From IMG/VR virus record IMGVR_UViG_2521172717_000006: 41,265 nt of DNA, one strand, 5' to 3'. This document shows, one piece after another, positions 1 through 8,619 of this stretch. The notes under the pieces are model-generated. The model made no database searches, was not told the DNA's origin, and saw nothing but the letters and a program-made list of their open reading frames with translations. Numbering within the stretch: the stretch's first letter is position 1; each line of letters opens with the position of its first letter. The translations under genes were made by a program, and so were the position numbers. This DNA is from a virus (taxonomy: Duplodnaviria; Heunggongvirae; Uroviricota; Caudoviricetes).

Positions 1-1158
1 ATGCTCACCGTTAAGCAGATTGAAGCAGCAAAGCCGAAAGAAAAACCATACCGCCTACTCGATGGTAATGGACTGTACCTTTATGTCCCTGTGTCAGGGA
101 AAAAGGTATGGCAGCTTCGCTACAAGATTGACGGTAAGGAGAAAATCCTGACCGTAGGAAAATACCCGCTTATGACTTTGCAAGAGGCAAGGGATAAAGC
201 ATGGACTGCGAGGAAAGACATCTCGGTCGGAATCGATCCGGTAAAAGCGAAAAAGGCTTCGTCTAACAACAATTCCTTTAGCGCCATTTACAAGGAATGG
301 TACGAGCACAAGAAGCAAGTCTGGTCTGTAGGGTATGCGACTGAACTTGCCAAAATGTTTGACGACGACATTTTACCTATCATTGGCGGCCTTGAAATTC
401 AGGATATTGAGCCGATGCAACTGCTGGAAGTAATCCGCAGGTTTGAAGATCGCGGTGCAATGGAGCGAGCCAACAAAGCCCGCAGAAGATGCGGCGAGGT
501 TTTCCGTTACGCTATTGTCACTGGTAGGGCTAAATATAACCCGGCACCTGACCTTGCTGACGCCATGAAGGGATACCGCAAGAAGAACTTCCCGTTTTTA
601 CCTGCCGACCAGATCCCGGCATTCAACAAAGCACTTGCAACATTTTCAGGAAGTATCGTATCGCTCATTGCGACCAAAGTTTTACGCTACACAGCCCTAA
701 GAACGAAAGAGCTTCGTTCCATGCAATGGAAGAACGTCGATTTTGAAAACAGGATTATCACCATCGACGCCAGTGTGATGAAGGGACGCAAAATTCATGT
801 TGTCCCGATGTCAGACCAGGTGGTTGAACTTCTCACTACGCTAAGCTCAATCACTAAACCAGTATCAGAGTTTGTTTTTGCCGGGCGAAACGATAAGAAA
901 AAGCCAATCTGCGAGAACGCGGTATTGCTTGTGATCAAACAAATCGGCTATGAGGGTCTGGAAAGCGGTCACGGATTCAGGCATGAATTCAGCACGATTA
1001 TGAACGAGCACGAATGGCCTGCTGACGCTATTGAAGTGCAACTTGCACATGCCAACGGCGGATCTGTGCGCGGGATTTACAACCATGCTCAGTATCTAGA
1101 TAAGCGCAGAGAAATGATGCAGTGGTGGGCTGACTGGATTGATGAAAAGGTGGAGTGA
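1..1158 (+). CDS. intS: Tyrosine site-specific integrase (P4/IntS-type), 385 aa
   Basis: N-terminal MLTVKQIEAAKPKEKPYRLLDGNGLYLYV typical of P4-family integrases; C-terminal R...HxxR...Y catalytic motifs (HGFRHEF, RGIYNHAQY) present; ORF begins at window position 1. Confidence 0.9.
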   Translation: MLTVKQIEAAKPKEKPYRLLDGNGLYLYVPVSGKKVWQLRYKIDGKEKILTVGKYPLMTLQEARDKAWTARKDISVGIDPVKAKKASSNNNSFSAIYKEWYEHKKQVWSVGYATELAKMFDDDILPIIGGLEIQDIEPMQLLEVIRRFEDRGAMERANKARRRCGEVFRYAIVTGRAKYNPAPDLADAMKGYRKKNFPFLPADQIPAFNKALATFSGSIVSLIATKVLRYTALRTKELRSMQWKNVDFENRIITIDASVMKGRKIHVVPMSDQVVELLTTLSSITKPVSEFVFAGRNDKKKPICENAVLLVIKQIGYEGLESGHGFRHEFSTIMNEHEWPADAIEVQLAHANGGSVRGIYNHAQYLDKRREMMQWWADWIDEKVE

Positions 1159-1321
1159 TCGATCTTAACCACTATCGGATAGTACAAAGCTTTGTGTGCC
1201 TCGTTCATGCCTCACATTACCTGGCAATCATCAAATTCACCAGAACGTTCATAAATCGTCTTTGTGATCTGCTTCACTGTTAGACGTAATACTTTTTGCA
1301 GTTATTTTATAATCATAGAAA

Positions 1322-1336
1322 TGCTCATCATGAGCA
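1322..1336. promoter_or_regulatory. Perfect palindrome TGCTCAT-c-ATGAGCA upstream of acyltransferase promoter; possible operator
   Basis: 7-bp inverted arms around a single centre base, read directly from sequence about 30 bp upstream of the -10 element. Confidence 0.3.
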
Positions 1337-1364
1337 GTGAGTTGGTGATCTGCGCTGGTAGCCC

Positions 1365-1373
1365 TGCTATAAT
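1365..1373 (+). promoter_or_regulatory. Extended -10 promoter element TGcTATAAT for acyltransferase gene
   Basis: Consensus TATAAT hexamer preceded by TG one base upstream; no good -35, consistent with extended -10 class. Confidence 0.4.
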
Positions 1374-1391
1374 CCTTTGAAATTTTATCTC

Positions 1392-2531
1392 ATGGTGTGC
1401 ATTATGATCTTTGAGGCGCAAAGTCTTTATTTATATTTTTTGTCTCTTTTAGCCGTTGTGTTATGTATTACACTATTGACACGATATAACTATTTTTCTC
1501 ACATCAACTTTGCAAGTAACAGGTATTTCTTTATAGACGGATTGCGTGGGATAGCTGCGTTCAGCGTTCTTATTAATCACGGCGCTCATACAATTATTAC
1601 CAATGGAGTTCAGCCCATATTTATAGACTTCACAAAATACTCCATCACAGGGAATATGGGTAGCTTCGGTGTACAGATTTTCTTTTGCATTACAGGATTT
1701 TTGTTCTTTGATAAATTAATAAAAGGAAATAATACATTTGACTGGAATAAATTTTATGTTGCTCGGATAAAAAGACTCGTTCCTCTATATATGCTTACTG
1801 CGCTTTTGGTGGCAATTTTAGCTATTATATTATCCGGCAGTTCAGCAAGGCTTAACTTTGTTGATTTTTCAAGCTTCCTAAATTTTTTTGGGTTTGGATT
1901 TTTGGGCACAGAAATCTTCATTGGCTCTTTTAACGCATCAGGATTAAATGCGGTGATATGGACTCTACCGTATGAATGGAGGTTTTATTTAATTTTCCCT
2001 CTATTATCGATTGCCATCGCAAGCAAGAGATATGGTATGTTTGCCATTTCCGCAGTAATGTTACTTGCGGCAAGAGACTTTATGACAGAATTTGTTTTGT
2101 GGCCATATTTTATAGTTGGCGCCTTAGGTGCATATATATTCAATAAATCTTATGTTAACATTGATGATAAATATTGGATATTCTCATTCATTTCTTTCAT
2201 AGCTATTTTTGTTATCTTCTGCTCTTCCGCAGACAGCTATGGACGAATCAGATTTGCATGCATTTCATTACTATTTATAATGGTACTTATAACTAAACCA
2301 AAAATATTTAAAATAAAATCATTAGTTTATTTAGGTGAGGCAAGTTATAGTCTTTATTTGCTGCATTTGCCTATCATGGCTATAGTAATGAGAACAATAA
2401 ATAATTTCTATAACCTATCGAGCATGTCTACTGTGAATTACACAATTTTGATAGCCTTTATTGCATCTCTGTGTAGCGTTATTTCCTGTATCTGTTTTAA
2501 GAATTTTGAGTGGAGATTCATTAAAAAGTAA
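1392..2531 (+). CDS. Acyltransferase family 3 integral membrane protein, O-antigen acetyltransferase-like (serotype-conversion candidate)
   Basis: FIDGLRGIAAFSVLINH motif near N-terminus typical of acyltransferase_3; multi-pass hydrophobic profile; visibly AT-rich codon usage; track ORF starts at TTG 1377, first ATG is 1392 (1404 also possible). Confidence 0.8.
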   Translation: MVCIMIFEAQSLYLYFLSLLAVVLCITLLTRYNYFSHINFASNRYFFIDGLRGIAAFSVLINHGAHTIITNGVQPIFIDFTKYSITGNMGSFGVQIFFCITGFLFFDKLIKGNNTFDWNKFYVARIKRLVPLYMLTALLVAILAIILSGSSARLNFVDFSSFLNFFGFGFLGTEIFIGSFNASGLNAVIWTLPYEWRFYLIFPLLSIAIASKRYGMFAISAVMLLAARDFMTEFVLWPYFIVGALGAYIFNKSYVNIDDKYWIFSFISFIAIFVIFCSSADSYGRIRFACISLLFIMVLITKPKIFKIKSLVYLGEASYSLYLLHLPIMAIVMRTINNFYNLSSMSTVNYTILIAFIASLCSVISCICFKNFEWRFIKK

Positions 2532-2535
2532 CATT

Positions 2536-2553
2536 GCGGGGCGATGGCCCCGC
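2536..2553. terminator. Bidirectional hairpin terminator between convergent acyltransferase and tailspike genes
   Basis: GCGGGGC-gatg-GCCCCGC stem-loop with T-rich flank on both strands. Confidence 0.55.
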
Positions 2554-2563
2554 TTGATTTCCG

Positions 2564-4762
2564 CTACGCTATATTAAGATTACCATATGTATTGTTTCCA
2601 AGACCATACCATGCCCAGTTTGTTCCTGATGCAGGAGTACCTGCATTGTGAATCATATCGCCTATATTTATCAGCACTTTCCCAGGGTATGTTGTAGTAG
2701 GAGCAGTGTCTATTCCAGCAGACACATCGGCAAAACGCCAACCACAGGAAACCATATCTGCGTTATCTCTAAATTTCTTAATTGAAAACGTGTATCTGTT
2801 TCCTCTATATATCATTCCAGCAAAACTAGGCCAGTCAATAAGTTGATTTACTGGTGAGTTTAAAGTGTTACTAAACTCATTATTTTCAATAACTGGTTCA
2901 TCGATACGCACACCCGAAGTTGATACTAGATATGTAGAATCAAAGTCGTTGTCAGAAATAATTGGAGCATAACCACCAATTTCACAACCTGTATTGCCAT
3001 GAACAAAATATGACTTATTCCCTCGGTATATAGATTTTCTCCATGTGGGCATTGTTACTTTTACGGCATCAGTTCTATCAAACTGGTTGTTTTCAATCAC
3101 AAGTCCATAACAATATGCAGACATCTGAGTTTCAGCATAATCATTTATGGCATAACCACCGCCTTTAAATGTATTTTTTGTTATTTTAATTCCATTGAAT
3201 GATGTTGAGTAGTCATTACTACCATTCCAGATAATTAGAATATGAGATGAAAATGTGCCATCCTCGTTCTGATCCCCAATGCTTATATTGCTATCAATAA
3301 CAACATTCTGCGCTGCAACACCGTTAGATTCACCTCCTATCTCAACGAATATTCCTTGTCCTGTTTTGATGTTATTCGATATAACTGCACCACCAGTCAC
3401 CCCCCAAGGAGTAATCCTAGACTGAATACTTATAGGGCTTATAAAGTGATTTCTTTCTGCAATTAAATATTTTGTTCTTGCTGAGCACGCAAAATCTTCA
3501 CCAAAAGTATGCCATTTTCTGCCTGTTCTGTACGTTTGGCAGTCAATCATCTTAGCAATTCCATTAAGATTTTTAGTGAAAAATGTATAATTTGTTACCA
3601 AATCAGTCCTTACATTGCTAAGAGTTATATCCTCATTTGGTATAGCACCGTCACCATCAGCATCTGCCATTACAAAGATTCTTGCAGCCAATACGTCAAT
3701 ATCATTAATAGATCCACTACTCCCCTCAAGTGCGAAACCAAACCAATTCTCTTGAGGGGTAAACGTGGTATCTGAAGGTCCAGTTGAAAAATTTGTGCAT
3801 GACTGGTTTAACTTTATACCATTAAATTTAAAGTTTTTGCAGTTGAATAAACCAAAGCAAACACGCTCAGCCTCACCATTTCCATCTGTATTTATATTTA
3901 CATCATTATCTGCGTAAACAAATAAATTATTTTTACCATTAATTACAATTGCTGTTTTACGTATAACACCTGCAGAGTCATGATATTGCTGGCTGATTTG
4001 GTAATTAAACTTTATCTCACCGGCGCTAAAACGTATTGCTCTAACACCACCAAATTTTGATATACAAGCGTTAACCGATGCCGTTGAATCATGCACTCCG
4101 TTAATATCATGTCCAGCCCAAACTGTATGTATGCCATCGAGCACACAATTCGAACGGATCCAGCAACCAGAGCCACCACCATCACTCTCACCAGTTCCCG
4201 CAAGGAAAGCAGCGAGCTCAGCATACGAACCATCCCACGGAACTGTGGGGCTAAATATGGTGATACCGTTGTGCTGAGATTTAGGCATGCTGGCATCCCA
4301 GTAAAACTGCCCGCCGCCAAAGTTGGTTCCTGGTACGTATCCAATTACATTTAATGTGTGATTCCCAGCAGGCTCGCTCATTAAGGTATGGATGTCAGGA
4401 ACATTCTCCATTCGCTGGCTAAACTGATCGGGATCATACTTCAGCACATTGGGAAAATAGAACTGCTGCGAACCATACGCATCATATACAGCCATGGAAT
4501 GGCCTTGCACAGTTACGAACTTGGCAATCTGTCCGTTATATACCGGATATCCGGCAGCGTTAATGATTATTGGTTGCGAAACAGGAACGTGAGAGCCGTC
4601 TTCGTTCTCTATATAAACCTGAATCTGGTTTTCTGAATTTACGGGGTCAGCGTCAATTTTACCGATATAAATTTTGCCATTGGCTACGGCTTTAAAAGAA
4701 CGAGCCATAGTGAAGAGTTGCGAAGGCATGCTTACCACAACATTTGCGGTGATATCTGACAT
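2564..4762 (-). CDS. Tailspike protein: P22/HK620-type N-terminal head-binding domain plus divergent beta-helix receptor-binding domain
   Basis: N-terminus [42 protein letters not shown]...[10 protein letters not shown] matches remembered P22 gp9/HK620 tailspike head-binding domain; remainder Gly/Asn/Ser/Thr-rich; start taken at internal ATG (M17 of track ORF) with GGAG RBS. Confidence 0.9.
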
Positions 4763-4883
4763 TTCATTGCTCCAGACGAATGATATGATGCAACCATGAT
4801 GTGATTGCATACCGAAATGGTACTATTGAGTATTTATCCAGTAGGTTACGATGCCATTCCACCCAACTGGTGAGGCATCAAGG

Positions 4884-5144
4884 ATGTACAGCAAATACGA
4901 CGAGGCGCAGTTTCACTTGAGACTTCCGCATGAACTCCACGCGAAAATTAAGCAGCGTGCGAAGATGAATAACAGGTCGCTGAACTCAGAGATAATTGCA
5001 GCGATTGAAGAATCATTGGCTAAACAAAGCTCTGCATCTGTTTACATTGACGATGCAGAGCGTATGGCAGAACAACAATCTGATATGGTTAAGAAAATTG
5101 TCTTTGATACGCTCAAAGAGCTATATAAAAAAGACAGCAGCTAA
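4884..5144 (+). CDS. mnt: Mnt-like ribbon-helix-helix repressor
   Basis: FHLRLPHELHAKIKQRAKMNNRSLNSEIIAAIEESL and C-terminal AERMAEQQSDMVKKIVFDTLKELYKK resemble P22 Mnt from memory; start chosen at M12 of track ORF. Confidence 0.75.
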   Translation: MYSKYDEAQFHLRLPHELHAKIKQRAKMNNRSLNSEIIAAIEESLAKQSSASVYIDDAERMAEQQSDMVKKIVFDTLKELYKKDSS

Positions 5145-5164
5145 CCATCAGTTACGGAGGATTT

Positions 5165-5242
5165 ATGCAAAGAGATATGCTGAATATTGCGTTCTACATA
5201 TTTGGTTTTTGCACGTTCCTGGTGTTTGCGAAGCTATTCTGA
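5165..5242 (+). CDS. Candidate 25-aa hydrophobic peptide (MQRDMLNIAFYIFGFCTFLVFAKLF)
   Basis: ATG preceded by GGAGG about 4 nt upstream; single predicted TM helix; not in ORF track (too short); overlaps 3' end of ejection protein gene convergently. Confidence 0.3.
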   Translation: MQRDMLNIAFYIFGFCTFLVFAKLF

Positions 5243-7231
5243 CAATGCATCAGACTTGGCACCCTGAGTCAGGGCGTTAATGGCCTTTTGCGCCTGCTGC
5301 ATGGCTTTCTCAAACGCTGTTGATCCGCGTGGTGTGTTTGCCATTCGGAGCATTGCATTTCTGAATGGCTCGCTCTCATAGGCGCGAGTAAGAAGTCCGT
5401 AGCTTACCGCTGCGCCAGTTGTCGCCGGGTTCATTGCCGTCCCATACCCGATAATGAAAGGGATGGTTTGCTGCCCTGTTGGTGTTGTTACTGCCGCTTT
5501 TGCAGCCTGCTGCGTGGATTGCAGGTAGTTTTTCAATCCTTTCAGATAAGCGGCTTCCTGACCTTTAAATGTAATGCCAGTCTGGTTTTGCAGGATGTTA
5601 AGCTGCCGAAGGAACTGGTCAGGGGATCCGCCAGATTTCTCCATCGCCTTTCCAATGATGCCATTGCGCATTTGCGCCCTGCCAACACGACCAACTGAGT
5701 TATACAGCGTCTTAATTTCCGATTTGTTCTTGCTGAATAGCATGTTGTTGACAACTTCCGGCGTCAGGTCGCCTTTCATGAGAACATTCTTCAGCCTGGT
5801 ATTCTTTAGTTTCGCCGCTTCGTCAGCGTAGACGGCATTGGCCTGCTGATATTTACGGAGAGTATCGTTGCCAAGATTCTGACCAATGGCACCATTGATA
5901 TCGTCGGTCATCGCCTTGTAAACTCGCTGAATGGCAGCATCGGAACGGTTTGGTAACACTGGTCGCTCACCCTTCACGTCCATTCTGAACTGGCTGCGCA
6001 GATCGCTTAATTGCTTCAAATCCAGATTGACCGGACCATCAGGACCAGCATTGCGAACGAGCTCATCACGATATGACTGAAGTTTTGAAATAGTCTCGTT
6101 ATCAGCAACCTTACCAAGCTTCTGCAGGTTAGATATTTCTGTATCAATCTGCTGAATTGCTCGCGCAGGCTGAATGTTTACTCCAGCCATAGCATTCTGA
6201 ACCTGCTCCAGTCGATTACCGGCGGCACGACGAATTCCTGATGTTTTCGCTTTAAGGCTGTCAATAACAACCGCTGGATCATACTCACCGAATTTATCAG
6301 CAAATCTCTGAACCAACTGGCTTCTCGCTTCCTGTTGCGTTGCTCTCATTCCGCTTGTGCCAGCCAGGGGGATATTTTCCGCTGTCGTCTGCGCCATTTT
6401 CCCGACGCGGGAAGTGGGTTGTAACAGGTCTGTGGTGTGCAGAGGAACTCCTTCACGCTCTGCAAATCTGATAGCCTGCTGCGCTTCTGGCGCAATAGCA
6501 CCACGAACGCCACGATAAGCAGCACCTAATCCACGTCCGGCAGCGTTAATAGCACCGCCAGCCAGCACACCAACGCCTAAATCGGTGGCGAGTGCTTCCG
6601 CATCATCTTTCGCACTATTTGCAGCAAGTGATCCAACTGTGTTTTCAGCGAGAAGGCGAGTTGCCCCCTGAGCAATTCGACCAGCAAGTGTTGGTGCCTG
6701 TGCTGACGCTCTCTCAATGCCAGCAGGAGTGAGGTAAGGCAATGCCTCAGCAAATACCATGCCCTCTGTAGTTTGTGGAGTCAGCGCGCCTTTCTGAAGG
6801 CCAAAGTCCTGCTCTAATCCCTGCGTTGTTACTCGTGGCGCTGGTTGATATGTCCCATCGCCAATTCCGAGTTTACCGCCAGCCCAAGCCGCCGCGCTTG
6901 TTACAGCATCTGCAACTGATGCAGGTATGTTTGCCACGTTCACGCCCGCCTGCACCAGTCCGCGACCAGTCTCTTTTACTGCTTCACCAAGATCAGACAT
7001 AAATCCACTTTGCTGTGGTTGTTGCTGTGCTACTGGTTGCTGTGTCTCCACTGGCTGCACAGATGGCAATGGATAGGCAGCATAGAAAGCTTGCTTAGCC
7101 TGCTCTGCATTTTCTCCGGCTTGCGGGGCCACGACTTCATTGAAGTATTGCTCCTGAGCCTGCGCTTTTTGTTCTGGTGCTAACGCCTGATACTGTGGAG
7201 AGGCGATAACATCTTTCCATGCTTTAGCCAT
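5234..7231 (-). CDS. Ejection (injection) protein, P22 gp16-like
   Basis: Position last in the gp7-gp20-gp16 ejection protein series; Ala/Gln-rich 665-aa protein; stop of upstream gene overlaps start (TAATG). Confidence 0.8.
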   Translation of the reverse strand: MAKAWKDVIASPQYQALAPEQKAQAQEQYFNEVVAPQAGENAEQAKQAFYAAYPLPSVQPVETQQPVAQQQPQQSGFMSDLGEAVKETGRGLVQAGVNVANIPASVADAVTSAAAWAGGKLGIGDGTYQPAPRVTTQGLEQDFGLQKGALTPQTTEGMVFAEALPYLTPAGIERASAQAPTLAGRIAQGATRLLAENTVGSLAANSAKDDAEALATDLGVGVLAGGAINAAGRGLGAAYRGVRGAIAPEAQQAIRFAEREGVPLHTTDLLQPTSRVGKMAQTTAENIPLAGTSGMRATQQEARSQLVQRFADKFGEYDPAVVIDSLKAKTSGIRRAAGNRLEQVQNAMAGVNIQPARAIQQIDTEISNLQKLGKVADNETISKLQSYRDELVRNAGPDGPVNLDLKQLSDLRSQFRMDVKGERPVLPNRSDAAIQRVYKAMTDDINGAIGQNLGNDTLRKYQQANAVYADEAAKLKNTRLKNVLMKGDLTPEVVNNMLFSKNKSEIKTLYNSVGRVGRAQMRNGIIGKAMEKSGGSPDQFLRQLNILQNQTGITFKGQEAAYLKGLKNYLQSTQQAAKAAVTTPTGQQTIPFIIGYGTAMNPATTGAAVSYGLLTRAYESEPFRNAMLRMANTPRGSTAFEKAMQQAQKAINALTQGAKSDALSE

Positions 7232-8619
7232 TAATCACCCCATAGTGAAGAAAAATTACTGCTGGCTGCTGGCTGTGATACCTGTGCAGGTTGAGATTGC
7301 TTCCGCTGTGATTTACCAACATTAACGTTATATTGTTGGTTGTAATTGTTTGTGTATTCCTGAATCTCACGAATCGACTGCTGCATAGCCTCCGGGCTTG
7401 AATAGTCAACCTGCGGCATCCCCTGAAAATACATCTTCGCTTCTGCAACGGTGTTAATACCACTGGCACCCATGTCCCTTGCTGCCGCCACGCCCTGATT
7501 CTGCATTCTTCCCTGAATACGTTGTGCTGAGTTATATAACTGGCGCTGCTCTTTTCCTGTTAATCGGCTGCGAACATCAGCACCAATTGCTGGATTACCT
7601 GCACCGCCTGTCATTCCTGTCATGAAATCGAGAGCAGAAGCGTCTGCATTTGCGATCGCGTCGATATCCTTCTTCATGGCATAGTTTTGTGCTGATGCAG
7701 ACGATGTTGCAGGCGCTGCGATTGAACTGGCAGGAACGCGAACCATATTCCCCTCGTTGTCGATGCCTTCGTAGAACGCATTAGCCCCAGCGCCATGAAG
7801 CTTCCCGCCGACAGTTACAGTTCTGCCATCTGATAACTGAACTGTACGCTCATCATTCCCAGCAGTTCCTCTTGTTGACGATCGCTGCATTGCCAAATCC
7901 TGACCGCGTCGTGCAGTAGAAGCAGATAAATCCTGACCGCGCATCGTGATGTTCTGACCACGCGCTGTTAGTGCTTCTCCAGCCTGATTGCTGCGGATTG
8001 TCTCTGCAAGTTTTCCGCGGTCAATCTCACGACCAACGATTCTGTCCTGAACATTGAAGTAGTCAATCGGACCGAGAGCAGCCATCCCAAGGTGATCAAC
8101 AAACTCACCAAATCCTGAAGGATTATGCTGATACATCTGAGCAACGTTGTTAGGGTCAACGCCGACGCGCGCCAGTTCCTTGGCGTTGTTTTGCAGCCAT
8201 GATTGCATTGCTTCTGGAGACGATGACGCAAGGTGTGCGCCAGCCGCTAAGGTGCCGATAGAATTACGCTGCTCTTCATCAATGAATCCCATGCCTTTAC
8301 GAACGGATTCAATCTGGTCTGGATATTGAGTAGCCAACTGACGCAAAGCACCGCGATCACCAGACGCATAAGCATTAGCGTATGCCTGCTGAAATTCTTT
8401 CTGCCGCTGAGCCTGCTTTTCCTGCTGAAACACCCCCGCAATACCTGAAAGGCCTTGCAAAGCAGTCAGCCCAACATTGTTAGCGCCTGAACGCTCAATA
8501 TCATTGTTCTGCCTGATAAGCTGAAGCGTATTGCCGATGTCATTTACGCTCGGAGCGTTTGAGTTGACGCCACCGATACCAGCCAACAATCCGCCGTTTG
8601 TTCCTTGCCAAGTAGCCAT
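7231..8619 (-). CDS. Ejection protein, P22 gp20-like
   Basis: 462 aa, synteny between gp7-like and gp16-like genes. Confidence 0.8.

What the first reader, a model, noticed from the sequence alone, without database searches (positions are those of the whole stretch)
2564..4762. Mosaic tailspike: conserved head-binding domain fused to a divergent receptor-binding domain
The first roughly 110 residues match the P22/HK620-type head-binding domain almost residue for residue (from memory), then the sequence departs completely into a Gly/Asn/Ser/Thr-rich region typical of beta-helix glycanases. It does not match the P22 or HK620 receptor domains as I recall them. The 3' part is also AT-rich, like the adjacent acyltransferase, suggesting the receptor-recognition and receptor-modification functions were acquired together as one host-range/conversion cassette.
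Basis: partly seen in the sequence, partly recalled or inferred. Interest (0 to 1): 0.5.

Follow-up and report, generated by a model that had tools for sequence, protein, structure and literature searches.

The report
Mosaic O6-type tailspike with linked acetyltransferase
This is the tailspike gene of a P22/Sf6-like prophage of E. coli W, in which a standard virus-attachment head is joined to an uncharacterised beta-helix receptor domain that most likely recognises the O6 surface sugar, and which has travelled between unrelated phage types together with the neighbouring sugar-acetylating gene.

Summary
Window 2564-4762 (minus strand) encodes a 732-aa tailspike. Residues 1-113 are a P22-type head-binding domain (Pfam E=7e-66, about 90% identical to Sf6). 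The rest matches no solved or deposited P22-like receptor domain and is G/N/S/T-rich and AT-rich.

The window is the argW prophage of E. coli W (100% match). All four hosts checked that carry this tailspike or a neck-sharing relative have the O6 gene cluster (2.8% background). A 38%-identical homologue belongs to phage phiEB49, which experimentally needs O6 antigen. O6 specificity is inferred, not shown.

The cassette idea gains real support. A contiguous 3,090-bp block (1253-4342: acyltransferase, spacer, receptor domain) is 94% identical in epsilon15/phiV10-like prophages, and it fills the segment that differs from Sf6. Acyltransferase and receptor domain also co-diverge in four contexts. 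The link is not obligatory, because the same receptor domain also sits beside gtrABC.

Verdict: a new, uncharacterised member of a known kind. Moderate interest.

The parts
2564..4762 (-). Tailspike CDS, 732 aa plus stop (RefSeq WP_001280400.1, 'phage head-binding domain-containing protein')
   Evidence: ORF list; 100% identical to E. coli W NC_017635
4770..4773 (-). GGAG ribosome-binding site 7 nt upstream of the ATG at 4762. It supports this start over the upstream ATG at 4810.
   Evidence: Sequence read; RefSeq start
4424..4762 (-). Head-binding (virion-attachment) domain, aa 1-113, 43.7% GC
   Evidence: Pfam PF09008 E=6.7e-66; PDB matches to Sf6/P22 aa 1-117; 88% nt identity to Sf6
4148..4423 (-). 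Neck / helical-cap module, aa 114-205, about 50% GC. It holds most of the family's invariant residues (G145, G149-151, W155, H164, N165, C200, W201 and others).
   Evidence: Alignment A1 invariants. Shared at ~100% nt with other P22-like tailspikes that have different beta-helices. Weak match to the WceF head+neck region, 6tgf (PMC7949094). Model secondary structure.
4193..4282 (-). About 90-nt segment (gene nt 481-570, aa 161-190, [30 protein letters not shown]). It is near-identical in P22-like and epsilon15-like tailspikes and is the inferred crossover site.
   Evidence: Nucleotide alignment of W, L010, L016, L006 and L007
2564..4147 (-). Right-handed parallel beta-helix plus small C-terminal beta domain, aa 206-732, 37% GC (GC3 26%). 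Predicted O6-antigen-binding and hydrolysing part. Invariant acidic residues are D219, D262, E299, E338, D367, E422 and E474.
2532..2563 (.). 32-nt spacer between the convergent genes, with a perfect 7-bp G+C hairpin (2536-2553, GCGGGGC-GATG-GCCCCGC). It looks like a bidirectional terminator.
   Evidence: Terminator scan; 96.9% identical in epsilon15-like loci with the same spacing
1404..2531 (+). Oac-type integral-membrane acyltransferase (375 aa), 33% GC. Predicted O-antigen O-acetylase for lysogenic conversion.
   Evidence: Pfam Acyl_transf_3 E=6e-33; PHROG O-acetyltransferase E=8e-44; 22% identical to Sf6 Oac, E=4e-9; same position as Sf6 oac
1253..4342 (.). Cassette block shared with epsilon15/phiV10-like prophages: upstream region of the acyltransferase, the acyltransferase, the spacer and the receptor domain
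   Evidence: blastn 94.3% over 3,090 nt; per-segment identities; lies inside the 1152-4421 gap in Sf6 homology

Best explanation
The gene encodes the tailspike of an Sf6/P22-like (Lederbergvirus-type) prophage integrated at argW in E. coli W.

Residues 1-113 dock the trimer to the tail hub. Residues 114-205 form a conserved neck and cap. Residues 206-732 form a right-handed beta-helix. I infer that this beta-helix binds the O6 O-antigen of the host and cleaves it hydrolytically, bringing the virion to the outer membrane.

The convergent downstream gene encodes an Oac-type membrane acyltransferase. I infer that it O-acetylates the same O-antigen in the lysogen, so that phages carrying this spike can no longer adsorb.

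The receptor domain and the acyltransferase form a roughly 3.1-kb unit. This unit has moved between P22-like and epsilon15/phiV10-like prophages. One crossover lies in a ~90-nt neck segment that is near-identical in both tailspike types.

Shown here: domain architecture, fold, genomic identity, the shared block and its junctions, and the O6 genotype of the hosts. Inferred: O6 as the receptor, glycosidase activity, acetylation of O6, and superinfection exclusion.
For: Architecture and fold.

Prophage identity and Sf6-like backbone: the ejection-protein gene is 97% and the integrase 96% identical to Sf6, with the same order tailspike -> <- oac <- intS.

O6 link:
- E. coli W carries O6 wzx/wzy and is reported as O6 (PMC3032704).
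- E423, the only other lineage among 5,426 complete genomes with this receptor domain, is also O6.
- JKHS016 and 2017-02-2CC carry P22-like spikes with the same neck and ~40%-identical beta-helices. Both are O6.
- O6 wzy occurs in only 153 of 5,426 genomes.
- The receptor domain is 38% identical over 99% of its length to gp24 of phiEB49. That phage cannot infect waaL, waaG or wzy mutants of CFT073, and the K2 capsule is not its receptor (PMC12488582).
- Other homologues come from phages of O6 strains such as ATCC 25922 (PMC11148006).

Cassette:
- Window 1253-4342 is 94.3% identical to epsilon15-like prophage loci. The receptor domain is 99.8%, the spacer 96.9% and the acyltransferase 87.5% identical.
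- phiV10 has the same layout, with an oac annotated as acetylating the O-antigen for superinfection immunity.
- Identities to W for acyltransferase / receptor domain are 89/96%, 75/90% and 70/~60% (63% over the whole spike) in the first three contexts. In the fourth, a 41%-identical acyltransferase sits beside an unrelated receptor domain.
Against: No biochemical or phage-infection data exist for this protein.

The O6 inference rests on three or four host lineages and on homologues only 35-42% identical. E423 and JKHS016 share many identical chromosomal proteins and may not be independent hosts.

Relatives with 90% (Citrobacter freundii) and 72% (Salmonella) identical receptor domains exist in hosts whose O-antigens I could not determine.

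A PHROG family that matches aa 1-562 carries the label 'colanic acid degradation activity'.

The cassette is not an obligate unit. The same receptor domain pairs with gtrABC, with the junction about 34 nt before the stop codon. The acyltransferase has a divergent central patch of ~78% identity, which shows recombination inside the block.

No O-acetyl group on O6 is known to me, and none was found in the papers searched.
Confidence: 0.65

Rival explanations
1. The receptor domain and the acyltransferase were acquired independently. Their adjacency and shared AT-richness only reflect a common insertion hotspot between the tailspike and int, and the low GC typical of O-antigen-related genes.
For: The identical receptor domain sits beside gtrABC in E423 and three other assemblies, with homology ending at the stop codon. 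gtrC is equally AT-rich at 31%. Within the shared block the acyltransferase is 87.5% identical and the receptor domain 99.8%, so the two halves have different histories.
Against: A contiguous 3,090-bp block spans both genes and the spacer in a different phage genus. It fills the gap in Sf6 homology almost exactly. The same 32-nt spacer and hairpin are kept. The two genes show graded co-divergence in L016 and L024.
Confidence: 0.12
2. The beta-helix targets a glycan other than O6 O-antigen, for example colanic acid, the enterobacterial common antigen or a capsule.
For: PHROG phrog_8280, labelled 'tail spike protein with colonic acid degradation activity', matches aa 1-562 at E=4e-102. The N-terminal part resembles WceF, an exopolysaccharide hydrolase. 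Close receptor-domain relatives occur in Citrobacter and Salmonella.
Confidence: 0.12
3. The spike binds O6 antigen but does not cleave it, or modifies it in some other way, so it acts as an adhesin rather than an endoglycosidase.
Against: The P22-like tailspikes I know to have been characterised on O-antigen are endoglycosidases: P22 and Sf6 are endorhamnosidases (Sf6 annotation; P22 molecule name) and HK620 is an endoglycosidase (title cited). Seven acidic residues are invariant across 56 homologues down to 27% identity. The top structural neighbours are GH110 and GH87 hydrolases.
Confidence: 0.15
4. The gene is a decaying remnant in a defective prophage and has no current function.
For: In E423 the homologous gene is interrupted by ISApl1 and the prophage is degraded. 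The 2017-02-2CC prophage is heavily deleted.
Against: In W the ORF is intact with a good ribosome-binding site. The neighbouring tail, needle and ejection genes are intact. The receptor domain is 99.7-99.8% identical across three different phage backbones, which indicates recent transfer of a functional module.
Confidence: 0.05

Closest known systems
Shigella phage Sf6 tailspike gp14 with its Oac O-antigen acetylase (Lederbergvirus)
   Same: Head-binding domain about 90% identical in protein and 88% in nucleotides. Identical gene order: ejection protein, tailspike, terminator, convergent oac, intS. The flanking ejection-protein gene is 97% and the integrase 96% identical.
   Different: There is no detectable sequence similarity after aa ~117. 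The Sf6 spike is 623 aa, an endorhamnosidase for S. flexneri Y O-antigen, and has no comparable neck. The acyltransferase is only 22% identical to Sf6 Oac.
Escherichia phage phiV10 tailspike plus Oac (Uetakevirus), and the epsilon15-like prophages L010-L016
   Same: Same convergent tailspike/oac arrangement. phiV10 oac is annotated as acetylating the host O-antigen for superinfection immunity. The epsilon15-like prophages carry the very same receptor domain and acyltransferase block as W.
   Different: The N-terminal anchor is of the epsilon15 type, ~195 aa and 77% identical to phiV10, not a P22 head-binding domain. phiV10's own receptor domain (O157) and Oac are unrelated to those of W.
gp24 of siphophage phiEB49 and the 939-aa tail fibres of Kagunavirus-type phages (phrog_24092)
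   Same: Homologous neck plus beta-helix, 35-42% identity over 97-100% of aa 115-732. phiEB49 depends on O6 antigen experimentally.
   Different: Long siphovirus-type N-terminal anchors, lytic phages, low identity, and no adjacent O-antigen modification gene examined.
HK620 and P22 tailspike receptor domains; GH110/GH87 beta-helix glycosidases
   Different: Only 9-18% identity and no sequence-level match. Catalytic residues could not be compared.
Pantoea stewartii WceF (PDB 6tgf)
   Same: A P22-like head domain followed by a neck domain before the beta-helix. Sequence match of aa 7-167 to WceF 47-217, E=1e-9.

Membership tests
P22-like (Lederbergvirus) tailspike | N-terminal head-binding domain (Pfam PF09008) | tested here: met
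   aa 1-113 covers the full-length profile, E=6.7e-66. PDB matches to Sf6 and P22 N-termini.
P22-like (Lederbergvirus) tailspike | Position at the end of the virion gene block, after the gp7/gp20/gp16-type ejection proteins and next to the conversion/int region | tested here: met
   RefSeq annotation of E. coli W. Synteny and 96-97% nucleotide identity with Sf6 on both flanks.
P22-like (Lederbergvirus) tailspike | C-terminal right-handed parallel beta-helix receptor domain | tested here: met
P22-like (Lederbergvirus) tailspike | Homotrimer with endoglycosidase activity on the host O-antigen | not testable with these tools
   Only a monomer was modelled. No biochemical data were found.
Sf6, P22 or HK620 receptor-domain families (known specificities) | Sequence similarity of the receptor domain beyond the head-binding domain | tested here: not met
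   All PDB matches to full-length Sf6 and P22 chains end at aa 116-117. Megablast to these phages ends at gene nt 341-352.
Pfam PF27114 'Phage_tail_beta' | Match to the family profile | tested here: met
   Precomputed hit on the identical protein P0001 and on P0002. The local Pfam copy lacks this model, so it did not appear.
O6-antigen-dependent receptor-binding proteins (phiEB49 gp24 type) | Homology to the receptor-binding protein of a phage shown to require O6 antigen | tested here: met
   38% identity over 99% of aa 115-732 to P0048, phiEB49 gp24. O6 dependence of phiEB49 is in PMC12488582. That gp24 itself is the O6-binding protein of phiEB49 is assumed, not shown.
O6-antigen-dependent receptor-binding proteins (phiEB49 gp24 type) | Carried by phages or prophages of O6 hosts | tested here: met
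   W, E423, JKHS016 and 2017-02-2CC all carry O6 wzx/wzy, against 153 of 5,426 genomes overall.
O6-antigen-dependent receptor-binding proteins (phiEB49 gp24 type) | Direct binding or cleavage of O6 polysaccharide | not testable with these tools
   Needs purified protein and LPS.
Oac-type O-antigen acetyltransferase (neighbouring gene 1404-2531) | Acyl_transf_3 membrane domain without an SGNH extension, with the R-x10-H and FFxISG-type motifs | tested here: met
   PF01757 E=6e-33; phrog_3333 O-acetyltransferase. The alignment to Sf6 Oac shows LRGIAAFSVLINH and FFCITGFL aligned to the Sf6 motifs. That these motifs define the family is from memory.
Oac-type O-antigen acetyltransferase (neighbouring gene 1404-2531) | O-acetylation of the host O-antigen and block of superinfection | not testable with these tools
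   Inferred from position and from the Sf6 and phiV10 annotations.
Glycoside hydrolase family 110 | Sequence membership and conserved catalytic residues | not tested

The most novel reading that the evidence does not exclude
The O6 antigen is the target of a modular arms race. At least three different beta-helix receptor domains (~40% identical to each other) are grafted onto one near-identical neck in P22-like prophages of O6 strains. Each is paired with a different O-antigen modifier: a 375-aa Oac, gtrABC, a 367-aa acyltransferase plus gtrABC, or a 653-aa OafA-like acyltransferase. On this reading each spike variant recognises a differently decorated O6 (plain, acetylated or glucosylated). 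The spike-plus-modifier pairs then move as 'key-and-lock-changer' cassettes across phage genera, through a conserved ~90-nt recombination site in the neck.
Probability: 0.3. Interest if true: 0.55.

Novelty: new member of a known kind. Interest (0 to 1): 0.35.

Why it matters
O6 is one of the commonest serogroups of uropathogenic E. coli (CFT073, 536). It is also the serogroup of the probiotic Nissle 1917, the reference strain ATCC 25922 and the industrial strain W.

No O6-specific tailspike appears in the solved-structure or phage collections searched. A published survey of O-antigen-specific receptor-binding proteins did not list an O6 subtype (PMC10408124).

A defined O6-recognising and probably O6-cleaving domain would be useful for typing, for engineered phages or tailocins, and for removing O-antigen.

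The window also gives a clean example of a receptor domain and the gene that modifies the same receptor moving together between two unrelated temperate phage genera, with the junctions mapped to within a few tens of bases. This makes the co-evolution of host range and lysogenic conversion directly testable.

For E. coli W as a production strain, the prophage's acyltransferase may mean that its O6 LPS is chemically modified.

Tried and rejected
- The local Pfam scan found nothing beyond the head-binding domain. The family PF27114 is known only from precomputed annotations.
- Rfam found no RNA family in 1-8000.
- The repeat search found no convincing repeats delimiting the cassette. The 21-nt, 81% complementary pair at 1195-1215 and 4870-4890 looks like chance.
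- The promoter-like scan was no better than shuffled sequence.
- I could not determine the O-type of the hosts of the epsilon15-like loci (L010-L016), of the gtrABC loci L003-L005, or of the Citrobacter and Salmonella relatives. Only +/-10 kb of those contigs can be reached.
- Searches for the protein accession and for an O6-specific tailspike in the literature found no characterisation. A review of E. coli O-antigens did not yield the O6 structure in searchable text, so the composition comes from PMC11148006.
- The 'colanic acid' PHROG label was considered and judged weak (see rivals).
- The short ORFs on the opposite strand inside the gene (3509-3775, 4091-4354, 4388-4636) have no support and were not pursued.

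Full report
**What is at the coordinates**

The minus strand of window 2564-4810 holds one long ORF. The functional start is the ATG at 4762. It has a GGAG seven bases upstream and is the start used in RefSeq, giving 732 aa.

The window is the argW prophage of E. coli W. The receptor-domain DNA is 100% identical to NC_017635 and to three other assemblies of what is evidently the same strain (B-766 and two records labelled DH5alpha). It is 98.4% identical in one unrelated genome, E423. RefSeq calls the protein only 'phage head-binding domain-containing protein'. The genome paper lists the element as 'Argw*W (lambda)' and says none of W's mobile elements carries genes of particular note (PMC3032704).

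**Checking the observation**

- Pfam Head_binding covers aa 1-113 end to end, E=6.7e-66.
- Against all PDB sequences, the full-length Sf6 and P22 tailspike chains match only aa 1-117. Nothing matches further on, apart from a weak hit of aa 7-167 to WceF.
- Megablast against 50,697 phage genomes matches only gene nt 1-352, at 88-94% identity, in Sf6, HK620, CUS-3, Sf101 and relatives.
- The rest of the protein is 36% G+N+S+T, against 24% in the head-binding domain.
- GC is 43.7% for aa 1-113, 49.8% for aa 114-192 and 37.3% for aa 193-732 (GC3 26%). The acyltransferase is 33.2% and the remainder of the window 48.2%.

The one correction is that the AT-rich part begins about 100 residues after the head-binding domain, at aa ~210-225.

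**Anatomy: three modules and three nested junctions**

A 56-sequence alignment (A1) places most invariant residues in aa 145-203. AlphaFold2 on this alignment gave pLDDT 80.7 overall. Most of aa 210-720 scored about 90 or above. The N-terminus was unfolded because the homologues carry different anchors.

The WceF paper describes the same order: P22-like head domain, neck domain, helical cap, beta-helix (PMC7949094).

The three junctions are:
- Homology to Sf6 and HK620 ends at aa 114-117.
- P22-like tailspikes of strains JKHS016 and 2017-02-2CC are essentially identical to W through aa ~190, then fall to ~40%.
- Tailspikes with an epsilon15-type anchor become identical to W from gene nt ~481 (aa 161) onward.

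The ~90-nt overlap, nt 481-570 (window 4193-4282), is near-identical in all of them. I infer that it is the crossover site.

The beta-helix itself belongs to a narrow family. Only 23 clusters among 1.84 billion representative proteins match aa 193-732 at E<=1e-3.

**What it probably recognises**

By tblastn the receptor domain is 35-42% identical over 96-97% of its length to tail proteins of small siphophages. These include phiEB49 (host CFT073), UALMA_PCEc3 (host ATCC 25922) and a Kagunavirus named 536P11. The PHROG family of these 939-aa fibres matches aa 117-732 at E=2e-129.

phiEB49 has been shown to require O6 antigen. CFT073 waaL, waaG and wzy mutants are resistant, complementation restores infection, and the K2 capsule is not the receptor (PMC12488582). 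ATCC 25922 carries the O6 unit of 892 Da, which is three hexoses plus two N-acetylhexosamines (PMC11148006).

E. coli W carries 'O6 family' wzx and wzy and is reported as O6 with no K antigen. I located the O-antigen clusters of the other hosts:
- E423, with the same receptor domain, is O6 and has glycosyltransferases identical to those of W.
- JKHS016 and 2017-02-2CC, which share the neck but have different beta-helices, are also O6.

O6 wzy is present in 153 of 5,426 complete genomes, or 2.8%. Four of four is therefore far from chance, although E423 and JKHS016 may be related strains.

A temperate phage must adsorb to the strain it lysogenises. The correlation between Lederbergvirus prophage spikes and host O-type is documented (PMC10408124). 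I therefore infer O6 O-antigen as the receptor, with probability about 0.7. The O6 unit has no uronic acid, so a lyase mechanism is unlikely. Hydrolysis by some of the invariant carboxylates (E299, E338, D367, E422, E474) is the likely chemistry. This is inference only.

**The neighbour and the cassette question**

The convergent gene 1404-2531 encodes a 375-aa Acyl_transf_3 protein. It falls in the PHROG O-acetyltransferase family. It is 22% identical to Sf6 Oac and 27% to Sf101 OacB. It sits exactly where Sf6 keeps oac, between the tailspike and intS. The 32-nt spacer holds a perfect 7-bp G+C hairpin.

At first the cassette idea looked wrong:
- In E423 and in three other assemblies, the same tailspike gene (98.1% nt) lies beside gtrABC. 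Homology to W covers only the gene itself, 4776..2565.
- Of the 40 differences, 25 lie in nt 1-399 and 10 in the last 34 nt. The core is 99.7% identical, so the downstream junction in those phages lies just inside the 3' end.
- gtrC is as AT-rich as the acyltransferase, at 31%, so base composition cannot decide the matter.

Tracing the acyltransferase reversed that view:
- Its closest relatives, 89% and 75% identical, lie convergent to an 811-aa tailspike with the same 32-nt spacing. On the other side are holin, endolysin and spanin genes.
- The first 162 residues of that tailspike are 77-78% identical to the spikes of epsilon15 and phiV10.
- phiV10 has the same layout, with an oac annotated as acetylating the O-antigen for superinfection immunity.
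- Window 1253-4342 aligns to these loci as one 3,090-bp block at 94.3%. By segment the identities are: upstream region 90.7%, acyltransferase 87.5% (with a ~78% patch at 1700-2200), spacer 96.9%, beta-helix 99.8%.
- Against Sf6, W is 97% identical up to 5164, 88% over 4778-4422 and 96% over 1151-1, with nothing in between. The block shared with the epsilon15-like prophages therefore nearly fills the segment in which W differs from Sf6.
- The two genes co-diverge. Identities to W for acyltransferase / receptor domain are 89/96% (L010), 75/90% (L016, also epsilon15-like) and 70/~60% (63% over the whole spike) in L024, another P22-like prophage. A 41%-identical acyltransferase accompanies an unrelated receptor domain in L025.

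I conclude that the receptor domain and this acyltransferase lineage are a linked, mobile unit exchanged across phage genera. The unit can still be broken and re-paired.

**Comparison with what is known**

The closest known system is Sf6 (tailspike plus oac plus intS), with the same backbone and layout but both cassette genes replaced. The phiV10 pair is the functional analogue in the other genus.

Modular exchange of receptor domains between Lederberg-, Uetake-, Kaguna- and other viruses is established. So is the presence of O-antigen modification genes behind the spike (PMC10408124). That study did not define an O6 subtype. It reported conserved recombination motifs only in lytic genera.

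No paper holds this protein's accession. No solved structure or deposited phage carries a receptor domain more than 42% identical.

**Verdict**

This is an uncharacterised member of a known kind of protein. It comes with a well-supported, testable prediction of O6 specificity and a neatly mapped cross-genus 'receptor domain plus receptor modifier' cassette. Interest is moderate.

Noticed in passing
window 4851-5144 (+): A 97-aa protein with an Arc-like ribbon-helix-helix domain and a Mnt C-terminal domain lies divergent from the tailspike. There is no arc or ant gene between it and the spike, and this ~390-bp region is absent from Sf6. It may be a reduced immI region.
   Followed up: partly
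L006 (JKHS016), L007 (2017-02-2CC), L002 (E423) and the window: P22-like prophages of O6 strains carry at least three different beta-helices on the same neck. Each is followed by a different O-antigen modifier: a 375-aa Oac, gtrABC, a 367-aa acyltransferase plus gtrABC, or a 653-aa acyltransferase.
   Followed up: partly
E. coli genomes NC_017660 (KO11FL) and NC_022364 (LY180): From memory, both strains are W derivatives. Both have the W-identical O6 wzy but are not among the genomes holding the tailspike or the acyltransferase. This suggests the prophage was lost and may be excision-competent.
   Followed up: no
NZ_CP026085 and NZ_CM135829: Two assemblies labelled 'DH5alpha' carry the W prophage tailspike and acyltransferase at 100% identity. 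NZ_CP026085 also appears among the listed 100%-identical O6 wzy matches. They look like mislabelled E. coli W.
   Followed up: no
L002 6587-7670: In E423 an ISApl1 (IS30-family) element is inserted in the head-binding part of the homologous tailspike, and the prophage is degraded.
   Followed up: no
L013 and L014, 6200-7480: In some epsilon15-like prophages an IS (DDE_Tnp_1) sits exactly in the spacer between the acyltransferase and the tailspike. The cassette can therefore be physically split there.
   Followed up: no
window 1700-2200: The central third of the acyltransferase is only ~77-82% identical to the epsilon15-like allele, while its flanks are 94-98%. This is a mosaic patch inside the gene.
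   Followed up: partly
proteins P0003-P0010 (Citrobacter freundii) and P0011 (Salmonella enterica): Receptor domains 76-90% identical (Citrobacter, most with a PF18668-type anchor) and 72% identical (Salmonella, with a P22-type anchor) exist outside E. coli. This implies O6-like O-antigens in those hosts, or a shift of specificity.
   Followed up: no
window 4763-4810: An in-frame ATG at 4810 would add 16 residues ([16 protein letters not shown]). It has no support from homologues or from the RefSeq annotation.
   Followed up: yes
L019/L020 (JKHS016): The JKHS016 P22-like prophage appears to be inserted beside dacD, roughly 40-45 kb from the O6 gene cluster. That estimate assumes a ~40-kb prophage; the stretch from ~870 kb to ~902 kb of the record was not fetched.
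   Followed up: no
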